In this document: piece by piece, positions 34,911 to 36,200 of the stretch
Layout: the number at the start of each line of letters is the position of its first letter
How positions within the stretch are numbered: the stretch's first letter is position 1
NCBI RefSeq assembly: GCF_009914755.1
Contig: NC_060927.1
DNA from: the human T2T-CHM13v2.0 reference genome, Homo sapiens
DNA length: 64,000 nucleotides
Direction: 5' to 3' (one strand)
Program-made: the position numbers and the translations under genes
Notes under the pieces: generated by a model
Databases searched by the model: none
The model's input: only the letters and a program-made list of their open reading frames with translations
Told to the model about the DNA's origin: nothing

Positions 34911-36200
34911 TTGGTGTTTTGTTTTTTTTCCAAAGTAATTTGTTTAATTGATGAACAGTTAGAATCTATGAAAAATTGCCATATTGTTCTTTTGATACCT
35001 TTGGAAGGGTCTTGGGAGTTATTGGGCAATGATAGTAGAGATTCTGAAACTTTATTCTTGAGGCCTCTAGATTAAGTGCACAGTAGCATCCTCTCAGTCA
35101 GGCTGACTGCCAGAGATTTAGAAGCAGTAATTCCAGAGGAGGACTCATTTAATCCGCAACTGTAAGCTCTACTGCCCAAATGATATGCTCTGCACTGACA
35201 CATCACTTATCTTTGGGCACATTTTGCCTACTCACTTGTCTATGCCTGCCTAGGCAATGAGGAAGATGCTGCGGTTGTCCTCTGGGTAAGGGCACTGCAA
35301 GTCAGCTGGGAACAGGTAACATCCTATGGTCCTACGCTTCAGAGGCCTCTCCATTCATTGGTCCGGCCCCTGGCTGCCTTTCTTTCTTGGCAGCATTGTT
35401 TTTGGTTTTGCAGTGGTGGAGGATAAAGATGAGGGTGAGGTGGGGATGCCAATCATAATGTTCTGGGGTTCCTCTGGGAGGCTTTGGTTGTGAGGTAGGG
35501 CAATTGAATAGCTGGGCTTTGTGGGATTGCCAGGAAATTCTTTGACCCCCAGCTCCAGAGGGTCACTGGGGTGAGACCACACATTGGGGTCATTGCTGAT
35601 GACACTGAAGCATCTGTAGGTCCCTGCCCATGTGGAGGTGACACGGTTCATGAGGAAGACAGCCTTGTGTTCATTACCCTGGGATGTTCATTGCCTTTGG
35701 TTCTTGGTGGTGTGAAATCCATCTTATTTGGTGAGAATAAATAAACCAAGTTCAAATTTTGAGAAACATTGCAACTTCATATTCTCTCGTGATGCCACCT
35801 CAGTGCCTGGCATGATTGAGAGAAAGGGTTTGTCATAAGCTGTGGTCATTACCAGCTTCAGAGGTTCACTCAGACTAGTGGTCTCTGCTTCAATAGTAAC
35901 AGTGGTACAGCCCTGACCTGTTTGGCAGCATCTCTGTGATATTCCTTATGTTCGTCTTCCCACACTCATTTATTTCTGTTGGAGGGCTCAGGACTTTCCA
36001 CGTTACATATCCTATGTGTTTCAGTTTCTGATGGCCCTTGACCAGGATGCTTACAGACTTGTTAGATGAAATCAGGGAGCCCGGCATAGCCGTGATAAGA
36101 GGTGGGAGATTTCCCGTCTGTGCCTGAGTTAACTGGCATGGATAGGACCCAAGACAAAGTAGGGTAAGAAGAACCACATTTATGATCCTGTGTCTAAACA
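34911..36200 (-). pseudogene. LILRA2P1: Processed pseudogene of a two-Ig-domain leukocyte receptor complex (LILR/KIR/GP6-like) inhibitory receptor
   Basis: Intronless remnant, CDS about 35207-36179: signal peptide TLLCLG; Ig1 ...SGLYHCYY...SEPLKLVMT; Ig2 AYDKPFLS...LQCFS...AGTYRCF...WSHPSDPLELGV; then stalk, TM remnant and ITIM-like tail, with several stops and frameshifts. ATTAAA (minus strand, 34943-34948) lies 13 nt before a decayed poly(A) at 34911-34929. The symbol is recalled for a pseudogene in this region and is less certain than the call. Confidence 0.88.

What the first reader, a model, noticed from the sequence alone, without database searches (positions are those of the whole stretch)
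35207..36179. Retrocopy fossil of a possibly lost inhibitory two-Ig receptor with a LILR/GP6-like ectodomain and a KIR/LAIR-like tail
Seen: reading through the frameshifts on the minus strand gives signal peptide, two Ig domains, stalk and then NIMIGIP/LTLIFILHHCKTKNNAAKKERQPGAGPMNGEASEA*D/QDVTCSQLTCSALTQRTTAASSSLPRQA*TSE*AKCAQR*. Knowledge: KIR2DL reads HILIGTSV...FFLLHRWCSNKKNAA...EQDPQEVTYTQL...FTQR; LAIR1 has VTYAQLDHWALTQRT; VSTM1 ends HEYAAL. So VTCSQL (35303-35320) and SE*AK look like two ITIMs whose tyrosines have mutated. LILRA2 has four Ig domains and a short activating tail, so it is a poor parent despite the recalled name. The Ig domains look about equally distant from LILR, GP6 and NCR1. 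Inference: the parent was an ITIM-bearing two-Ig LRC gene that may no longer exist in humans, possibly related to the two-domain Ig-like LRC genes reported in some non-primate mammals.
Basis: partly seen in the sequence, partly recalled or inferred. Interest (0 to 1): 0.8.

Follow-up and report, generated by a model that had tools for sequence, protein, structure and literature searches.

The report
Known retrocopy of lost inhibitory receptor
This is a dead, intron-less copy on chromosome 3 of an inhibitory two-domain immune receptor gene that primates have lost but colugos, bats and hoofed mammals keep; it is real, but it was described in print in 2018.

Summary
On the minus strand, 36183-35207 reads colinearly, from the first codon to the shared stop codon, as signal peptide, two Ig domains, stalk, shortened transmembrane segment and a tail with two ruined ITIMs. 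I count 8 in-frame stops, 3 frame breaks and ATA in place of ATG.

The parent is not LILRA2 or any extant human gene. It is the long-tailed inhibitory member of the "novel Ig-like receptor" family of the leukocyte receptor complex:
- Identity is about 50% over the whole length to the hippo protein, 60-63% in D2 to the colugo protein, and about 33% to LILRs.
- Trees put it beside the colugo gene, inside that family.
- No better human relative or relic turned up on chr19, including the 50 kb spanning the interval between the two NACHT exons read as NLRP7/NLRP2.

Schwartz & Hammond 2018 (PMC6182393) already report a full-length processed human pseudogene of this family outside the LRC, with the original gene lost. 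Their coordinates are in a supplement I could not open.

Small additions here: a lesion map, evidence that the copy also exists in a New World monkey, and that the RefSeq name LILRA2P1 is a misnomer.

The parts
36181..36183 (-). ATA at the position of the initiator ATG
   Evidence: Aligns to Met1 of the hippo, pig and rhino family proteins in tblastn.
36115..36183 (-). Signal peptide relic (positions 1-23 of the reading)
   Evidence: tblastn colinear with residues 1-23 of P0085, P0129 and P0086. The D1 model envelope begins at position 24.
35844..36114 (-). Ig domain 1 relic. First cysteine replaced by Val. Stops TGA 35892-35890 and TAG 35877-35875 (the latter at the invariant Trp). Frame break at 35871.
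   Evidence: Family D1 model, 61.3 bits, envelope 24-114. 50% identity over signal peptide plus D1 to hippo P0085, against 31-35% to LILRs. Lost invariant Trp.
35541..35843 (-). Ig domain 2 relic. Stops TAA 35726-35724 and TGA 35690-35688. Both are absent from the copies P0001 and P0003.
   Evidence: Family D2 model, 130 bits, envelope 115-215. 63% identity to colugo against 43-46% to LILR D4. P0001 and P0003 read Glu and Ser at the two stops.
35460..35540 (-). Stalk relic
   Evidence: Colinear with the colugo and hippo stalks.
35419..35459 (-). Transmembrane relic, about 11 residues shorter than in the family, with a frame break at 35441-35440
   Evidence: Alignment to A1 shows an 11-column gap plus the break. 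tblastn changes frame here.
35210..35418 (-). Cytoplasmic tail relic. Stops TAG 35334-35332, 35326-35324, 35242-35240 and 35230-35228. Frame break at 35328-35327.
   Evidence: 59-62% identity to long-tailed family proteins. No hit to 6 LILR/KIR proteins at E<=10. Colinear to the last residue.
35303..35320 (-). ITIM 1 relic; the tyrosine codon is now TGT (35314-35312)
   Evidence: Aligns to V-T-Y-S-x-L/V of the family, whose V, T and Y are invariant in 10 of 10 rows.
35219..35236 (-). ITIM 2 relic; the tyrosine codon is now TAG (35230-35228)
   Evidence: Aligns to S-E-Y-A-T-L of the family, whose S, Y and T are invariant in 10 of 10 rows.
35207..35209 (-). TAA at the family's own stop position
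   Evidence: The alignment reaches the last residue of P0015, P0129 and P0086, directly followed by TAA.
34910..35206 (-). Putative 3'UTR: ATTAAA at 34948-34943, then an A-rich stretch at 34929-34910 (possible poly(A) relic). This part is inferred.
   Evidence: Signal scan and sequence. The copy P0003 stays alignable down to 35121. No target-site duplication found.

Best explanation
Window 36183-35207 (minus strand), plus a probable 3'UTR down to about 34910, is a processed pseudogene. It lies in an RSRC1 intron, antisense to RSRC1.

Origin (inferred from the anatomy): a spliced mRNA of the long-tailed, two-ITIM member of the 'novel Ig-like receptor' family of the leukocyte receptor complex was reverse-transcribed and inserted on the ancestor of chromosome 3, in the primate lineage. 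This happened after that lineage's gene had parted from the laurasiatherian genes and before catarrhines and platyrrhines split.

Since then it has decayed without constraint. The start codon is lost, there are 8 stops and 3 frame breaks, the membrane anchor has lost about 11 residues, and both ITIM tyrosines are gone. It cannot make the receptor.

The source gene itself is no longer detectable in the human genome. In other mammals it lies between NLRP2 and NLRP7, and its intact form would be expected to signal inhibition through its two ITIMs. That last point follows from the motif, not from any test here.

Shown: the anatomy, family membership, absence of a closer human gene, and presence in a tamarin. 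Inferred: the retrotransposition mechanism, the timing, and lack of any residual function.
For: (1) Colinearity. Four full-length or near full-length family proteins align from codon 1 to the last codon in four frame pieces with no intervening sequence. The same holds for all 10 family proteins used as the positive control.

(2) Identity by region:
- Signal peptide plus D1: 50% to hippo P0085, against 31-35% to LILRs.
- D2: 63% to colugo P0015, against 43-46% to LILR D4.
- TM plus tail: 59-62% to long-tailed family proteins, with no hit to 6 of 6 LILR/KIR proteins at E<=10.
- Whole length: 50% over 342 columns, E 6e-94, against about 33% for LILRs including two primate LILRA2 proteins.

(3) 35 of 46 family-invariant columns are kept.

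(4) Trees.
- D2 domain tree, 82 rows: the three pseudogene rows form one clade (SH-aLRT 99), join colugo (94), and sit inside the 21-row family D2 clade (99). They are apart from all 23 human chr19 exons included.
- Whole-length careful tree, 23 rows: pseudogene clade 100/100, with colugo 96/98.

(5) Human genome.
- The colugo protein's best match is this locus (60%, E 1.7e-46). The best of the chr19 matches is 44% (E 7e-17), out of 72 matches in all.
- The colugo and hippo TM/tail match only this locus.
- The pseudogene DNA matches chr19 only at 72-74% over at most 126 nt.
- D1 alone finds nothing else at E<=0.01.

(6) The family's usual site is empty. FCAR, NCR1 and GP6 exons were anchored by PDB matches. 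Two NACHT exons lie between them. The 50 kb that includes the interval between those exons gives best E 0.054 by tblastn with 10 proteins, and best E 0.22 with the family profile.

(7) Age.
- The Saguinus oedipus protein P0001 is 80% identical over D2 plus stalk. Its first 15 residues match (13 of 15) an ORF in the human flank at 36653-36609, so it comes from the same locus. Saguinus is a platyrrhine.
- The unnamed record P0003 stays about 82% identical in a single frame across all three human frame breaks, so those indels are shared. The two human D2 stops are absent from both P0001 and P0003.

(8) In print. [quoted passage not shown]
Against: - No target-site duplication was found. The best local alignment of the flanks scored 14, and 235 of 300 shuffles scored as high.
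- The poly(A) relic is only an A-rich 20-mer 13 nt after an ATTAAA.
- I have no nucleotide sequence of the parent from any species. The 5' and 3' ends, and the date, are therefore not fixed.
- With D2 alone (100 columns) the forced grouping of the pseudogene with the LILR D4 clade is only marginally rejected (lnL 35 lower, p-AU 0.047).
- The pseudogene's place inside rather than beside the family crown is not resolved by D2 (p-AU 0.65 for the family held together without it).
- TM and tail exons are short, so their absence from chr19 in six-frame searches is weak evidence.
- The coordinates of the published human pseudogene are in Supplementary Table 3, which I could not open. That the two are the same locus is inferred from there being only one such locus outside chr19. 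The only other non-chr19 matches were two chrX matches at 33-34% and one chr8 match at E 2.7.
Confidence: 0.93

Rival explanations
1. It is a processed pseudogene of LILRA2, as the RefSeq name LILRA2P1 says.
For: LILRs are the nearest family with solved structures. LILR D4 exons are the only human DNA that still aligns, at 72-74% over at most 126 nt.
Against: - Two primate LILRA2 proteins (P0058, P0046) are about 33% identical over the whole length, against 50% for the family.
- The copy has two Ig domains and a long tail with two ITIM relics. Neither LILRA2 protein, nor the other four LILR/KIR proteins tried, matches the TM/tail at E<=10.
- Trees put it in another clade.
- The forced grouping with LILR D4 costs 35 lnL units (p-AU 0.047).
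Confidence: 0.02
2. It is a retrocopy of an extant human two-domain LRC gene (LILRB4, LILRA5 or a KIR3DX1 isoform), made unrecognisable by age.
For: LILRB4 is the best PDB match for D1, but only at E 8.5e-4. D2 resembles the membrane-proximal LILR domain.
Against: - Living colugo, bat and ungulate genes match every part, including the tail and the stop codon, at 50-63%.
- Every human chr19 exon stays at 44% or less.
- The family TM/tail finds no chr19 exon.
- If decay alone were the cause, the copy would not be closer to foreign genes than to its own parent.
Confidence: 0.02
3. The copy is not inert. It has been kept as a transcript or regulatory element within the RSRC1 intron.
For: It has been retained since before the catarrhine-platyrrhine split. 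An unnamed record carries a 280-residue open frame across it (P0003).
Against: - That open frame is out of register with the receptor for D1 and for the TM/tail, so it is accidental.
- Lesions differ between species, as expected of neutral decay: two human stops are absent from the other two copies.
- The two RefSeq enhancers in the window (28580-29109 and 51730-51779, hub table) do not overlap it.
- No expression data were available to me.
Confidence: 0.03

Closest known systems
Long-tailed inhibitory gene of the 'novel Ig-like receptor' family of the LRC (Schwartz & Hammond 2018, PMC6182393), e.g. the Sunda flying lemur gene (P0015) and pig P0129
   Same: Same order of parts from first codon to stop: signal peptide, D1, D2, stalk, TM, juxtamembrane K-x-K-N-N-A-A stretch, two ITIM positions and the last residues. 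It clusters with the family in trees.
   Different: It is intron-less, sits on chr3 rather than between NLRP2 and NLRP7, and is disabled: no ATG, 8 stops, 3 frame breaks, a shortened TM and both ITIM tyrosines lost.
The human processed pseudogene of that family reported in PMC6182393 (section 15) and repeated in PMC6775213 (Introduction)
   Same: Full-length, processed, outside the LRC, parent lost, nearest to the colugo gene. All of this matches what I find.
   Different: Probably nothing; I take them to be the same locus. The paper says the copy was seen in Old World primates but not in more distant primates. I find it in a tamarin protein record. The paper's coordinates were not visible to me.
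LILR family (LILRA2 by the RefSeq name; LILRB4 and LILRA5 as two-domain members)
   Same: Same LRC-type Ig fold family. D1 is nearest LILR D1, and D2 is nearest the membrane-proximal LILR domain.
   Different: About 33% identity over the whole length. There is no similarity in the TM/tail to the LILRs tried. It falls in a separate clade.
KIR and LAIR1 tails
   Same: ITIM-type motifs of the same general form. This rests on recall, not on a test.
   Different: A family TM+tail query found no KIR or LAIR1 exon in the human genome at E<=10. No KIR or LAIR1 tail sequence was in hand for a direct comparison.

Membership tests
Novel Ig-like receptor family, long-tailed form (PMC6182393) | Two Ig-like domains of the family's own D1 and D2 types | tested here: met
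   Family D1 model 61.3 bits and D2 model 130 bits, one of each, in order. D2 sits inside the family D2 clade (SH-aLRT 99).
Novel Ig-like receptor family, long-tailed form (PMC6182393) | Long intracellular tail with two ITIMs | tested here: met
   The tail is colinear to the last residue at 59-62% identity. Both ITIM positions are present as relics, with the tyrosine codons now TGT and TAG. The motifs themselves are therefore destroyed.
Novel Ig-like receptor family, long-tailed form (PMC6182393) | No charged residue in the TM segment | tested here: inconclusive
   The TM is about 11 residues short and crosses a frame break. What remains has no charged residue.
Novel Ig-like receptor family, long-tailed form (PMC6182393) | Groups with family genes rather than LILR or KIR in a tree | tested here: met
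   Caveat: forcing it onto the LILR D4 clade is only marginally rejected with D2 alone (p-AU 0.047).
Novel Ig-like receptor family, long-tailed form (PMC6182393) | Location in the LRC between NLRP2 and NLRP7 | tested here: not met
   It lies on chr3 in an RSRC1 intron (hub table). This is expected of a retrocopy, and the paper itself makes this exception for the primate pseudogene (Discussion passage). Felids also keep the gene elsewhere, between GP6 and RDH13 (PMC10206138 passages). I therefore treat location as a property of the source gene, not of the sequence family.
Processed pseudogene | Colinear with the spliced coding sequence, with no introns | tested here: met
   The parent's exon structure was not seen directly. 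Many predicted isoforms of the family genes and the paper's gene description imply a multi-exon gene.
Processed pseudogene | Poly(A) tail after a polyadenylation signal | tested here: inconclusive
   ATTAAA at 34948-34943, then an A-rich stretch at 34929-34910.
Processed pseudogene | Target-site duplication | tested here: inconclusive
   None found. After more than 40 million years this is not decisive.
Processed pseudogene | Disabled reading frame, away from the parent locus | tested here: met
   8 stops, 3 frame breaks, ATA start. It is on chr3, against chr19 for the LRC.
   About 33% identity to two primate LILRA2 proteins. The copy has two domains. Its long tail has no match to them.

The most novel reading that the evidence does not exclude
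The copy is older and more widely kept than printed. It was inserted before catarrhines and platyrrhines split, and possibly in the primate stem soon after the split from colugos. That would make it the only surviving record of the primate version of a lost inhibitory receptor. Compared across primates, it could bracket when the LRC gene between NLRP2 and NLRP7 was lost, and allow the lost receptor's ectodomain to be inferred for ligand work.
Probability: 0.6. Interest if true: 0.3.

Novelty: already known. Interest (0 to 1): 0.15.

Why it matters
It matters little beyond annotation.

- The locus shows that the primate lineage once had the inhibitory two-Ig receptor that colugos, bats, horses, pigs and ruminants still express, and then lost it.
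- The RefSeq name LILRA2P1 and its span (35362-36174) are misleading. The name points to the wrong parent, and the span omits the tail with the ITIM relics.
- The presence in a tamarin pushes the minimum age back beyond what the 2018 paper states.
- The function and ligand of the living family are unknown, according to the papers read (Discussion passages of PMC6182393 and PMC6775213). The fossil itself answers no open question.

Tried and rejected
- Target-site duplication: direct-repeat scan and local alignment of the two flanks. Nothing above shuffles.
- Relic of the source gene on chr19: tblastn with 10 family proteins and a family profile over 58,030,001-58,080,000. Only one marginal tblastn pair turned up: deer P0110 D1 at 28% over 102 columns, E 0.054, at about 58,036,636-58,037,035. 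The profile search did not support it, so I treat it as noise.
- A profile search of the whole human genome was not possible; the tool does not take an alignment for this genome.
- KIR/LAIR-like tail: the hippo TM+tail against the human genome found only the chr3 copy, plus a chr8 match at E 2.7.
- Literature: 'LILRA2P1' gave 0 papers. 'leukocyte receptor complex' + 'processed pseudogene' + 'chromosome 3' gave 0. 'RSRC1' + 'LILRA2' gave 0. The primate LILR paper PMC8562567 and the 2026 paper PMC13756075 only cite the 2018 paper in their reference lists or in passing (term searches only).
- In the whole-length tree, one of my three intended outgroup rows (hedgehog P0190) proved to be an isoform of the hedgehog family gene. 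The root therefore rests on two bat rows only.
- Dating from branch lengths or stop counts was considered and dropped. Without nucleotide sequences from other species it would be guesswork.

Full report
**What is there.** The window is human chr3 (T2T-CHM13), and the feature lies in an RSRC1 intron, antisense to that gene (hub table). Reading the minus strand in three frames gives pieces of an LRC-type Ig receptor.

tblastn of full-length relatives fixes the path:
- 36183-35872: signal peptide and most of D1.
- One base skipped (35871).
- 35870-35442: end of D1, D2, stalk and start of the TM.
- Two bases skipped (35441-35440).
- 35439-35329: rest of the TM and the juxtamembrane tail.
- Two bases skipped (35328-35327).
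- 35326-35210: distal tail, followed by TAA at 35209-35207, which is the family's own stop position.

The reading has 326 positions with 8 in-frame stops. Their codon starts are 35892, 35877, 35726, 35690, 35334, 35326, 35242 and 35230. Other lesions:
- The first codon is ATA.
- The first D1 cysteine is Val.
- The TM lacks about 11 residues.
- The two ITIM tyrosine codons are TGT (35314-35312) and TAG (35230-35228).

**What it is related to.** Against solved structures, LILRs are nearest and GPVI, NCR1, FCAR and OSCAR are clearly further. The Ig domains are not equidistant from these families.

Within the human genome nothing is close:
- The D2/stalk piece finds chr19 exons at E 2e-8 or worse.
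- The 1.5-kb DNA finds only 72-74% identity over at most 126 nt.
- D1 finds nothing else at E<=0.01.

The large protein database gave the decisive hits. A Sunda flying lemur protein (P0015, auto-named LILRB4) and proteins of hippo, rhinoceros, pig, bovids, deer, camel, horse, hedgehog and many bats (auto-named LILRA5, LILRB4 or LILRA6) share every part of the reading. That includes the juxtamembrane stretch, both ITIMs (V-T-Y-S-x-L/V and S-E-Y-A-T-L) and the last residues.

Identity by region:

| Region | Family | LILR/KIR |
|---|---|---|
| Signal peptide + D1 | 50% (hippo) | 31-35% (LILRs) |
| D2 | 63% (colugo) | 43-46% (LILR D4) |
| TM + tail | 59-62% | no hit to 6 of 6 proteins at E<=10 |
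| Whole length | 50% over 342 columns, E 6e-94 | about 33% (LILRs incl. two primate LILRA2) |

35 of 46 columns that are invariant in ten family proteins are kept.

**Trees.** The domain tree had 82 rows and was built by the quick method. The rows were every domain of 28 hand-picked proteins, the pseudogene reading and nine human chr19 loci that passed a D2-model filter. The pseudogene's own D1 did not pass the filter and is not in this tree.

In that tree the human copy groups with two other primate copies (SH-aLRT 99), then with colugo (94). All of these sit inside the family D2 clade of 21 rows (99), apart from 23 human chr19 exons and the LILR D2, D3 and D4 clades.

The whole-length careful tree had 23 rows: 17 family proteins chosen by hand for taxonomic spread out of the 120 listed, three pseudogene rows and three intended outgroups. 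It gives the pseudogene clade 100/100 and its union with colugo 96/98. The rest follows the species tree. One intended outgroup turned out to be a hedgehog family isoform.

Results against my reading:
- With D2 alone, forcing the pseudogene onto the LILR D4 clade is only marginally rejected (lnL 35 lower, p-AU 0.047).
- Holding the living family together without the pseudogene is not rejected (p-AU 0.65). D2 alone therefore does not place it inside rather than beside the crown.

**Is the parent gone from humans?**
- The colugo protein's best human match is this chr3 locus (60%, E 1.7e-46). The best chr19 exon is 44% (E 7e-17). There were 72 matches in all.
- Its TM/tail matches only chr3 (E 1.1e-6).
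- The hippo TM+tail likewise finds only chr3 (E 2e-4 and 0.03).

The literature places the family between NLRP2 and NLRP7, so I looked there directly. I anchored FCAR (57,982,302-601), NCR1 (58,003,547-867) and GP6 (58,121,751-58,122,047) by near-identical PDB matches. Two NACHT exons lie between NCR1 and GP6, at 58,034,089-592 (minus strand) and 58,076,416-919 (plus strand). That these are NLRP7 and NLRP2 follows from the published gene order, not from a direct test.

I then searched the 50 kb that includes the interval between them. tblastn with 10 family proteins gave best E 0.054, and the family profile gave best E 0.22. No relic is detectable. Short tail exons could escape such searches, so the absence is strong for the Ig exons and weaker for the tail.

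**How it arose.** All coding parts are contiguous, while in the chr19 LILR loci I fetched the Ig exons start about 500-640 nt apart (ORF offsets). This is the signature of a spliced mRNA copied back into DNA.

An ATTAAA at 34948-34943 is followed 13 nt later by an A-rich 20-mer (34929-34910). That is a plausible poly(A) relic. No target-site duplication survives. The mechanism is inferred, not shown.

**Age.**
- A Saguinus oedipus protein record (P0001) is 80% identical over D2 and stalk. It begins with 15 residues that match (13 of 15) an ORF in the human flank at 36653-36609. It therefore derives from the orthologous locus of a platyrrhine.
- An unnamed record (P0003) stays about 82% identical in one frame from 35969 to 35121, across all three human frame breaks. 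Those indels are therefore shared. The two D2 stops of the human copy are absent from both records.
- The copy thus predates the catarrhine-platyrrhine split. By recall that split is somewhat over 40 million years old. The copy has kept decaying since.

**What is known.** Schwartz & Hammond 2018 (PMC6182393) describe this family. I read the abstract, sections 5, 14 and 15 in full, and passages of the Discussion. They report:
- Two Ig domains, and in the long-tailed form a 75-residue tail, two ITIMs and an uncharged TM, alongside short-tailed partners.
- A location between NLRP2 and NLRP7.
- Presence in pig, cattle, sheep, goat, horse, a bat and the Sunda flying lemur.
[quoted passage not shown] The coordinates are in Supplementary Table 3, which I could not open. 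The 2019 goat paper repeats the point (PMC6775213, Introduction passage). The 2023 carnivore paper adds felids, where the gene lies between GP6 and RDH13 (PMC10206138, passages).

My genome-wide searches find only one such locus outside chr19. I therefore take the published pseudogene and this locus to be the same, with confidence of about 0.9.

**Verdict.** What I add is minor:
- A base-level lesion map.
- Evidence from a tamarin record that the copy is older than the paper states.
- The point that the RefSeq name LILRA2P1 names the wrong parent, and that its span (35362-36174) omits the ITIM-bearing tail.

Noticed in passing
window 36312-36350: Three tandem copies of a 13-nt unit (100%, 100% and 92% identity), about 130 nt upstream of the pseudogene's first codon on the minus strand.
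   Followed up: no
window 35362-36174 (RefSeq LILRA2P1 span): The annotated span stops short of the full coding-equivalent region (35207-36183). It leaves out the distal tail with both ITIM relics, and the name points to a gene that is not the parent.
   Followed up: yes
window 36609-36653 (minus strand): An ORF in the flank matches the first 15 residues of the tamarin protein model P0001 (13 of 15). That model splices flank sequence onto the pseudogene's D2, which looks like an annotation artefact. It is useful here only as proof of orthology.
   Followed up: partly
G000:C23:129598715-129599396 (chrX): Two adjacent LRC-like Ig-domain matches to the colugo protein (33-34% identity, E 1e-5 and 6e-4). 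These were the only non-chr19 matches besides the chr3 copy.
   Followed up: no
L021 (G000:C19:57756202-57759531): One open frame of 315 residues holds a D1-type and a membrane-proximal-type Ig domain back to back, without a stop between them. Which LILR gene this is was not determined.
   Followed up: no
L024 6636-7035 (G000:C19:58036636-58037035): Marginal tblastn match of deer family protein P0110 (signal peptide and D1, 28% over 102 columns, E 0.054), near one of the two NACHT exons. The family profile search did not support it. Probably noise, but it lies in the region where the lost gene should have been.
   Followed up: partly
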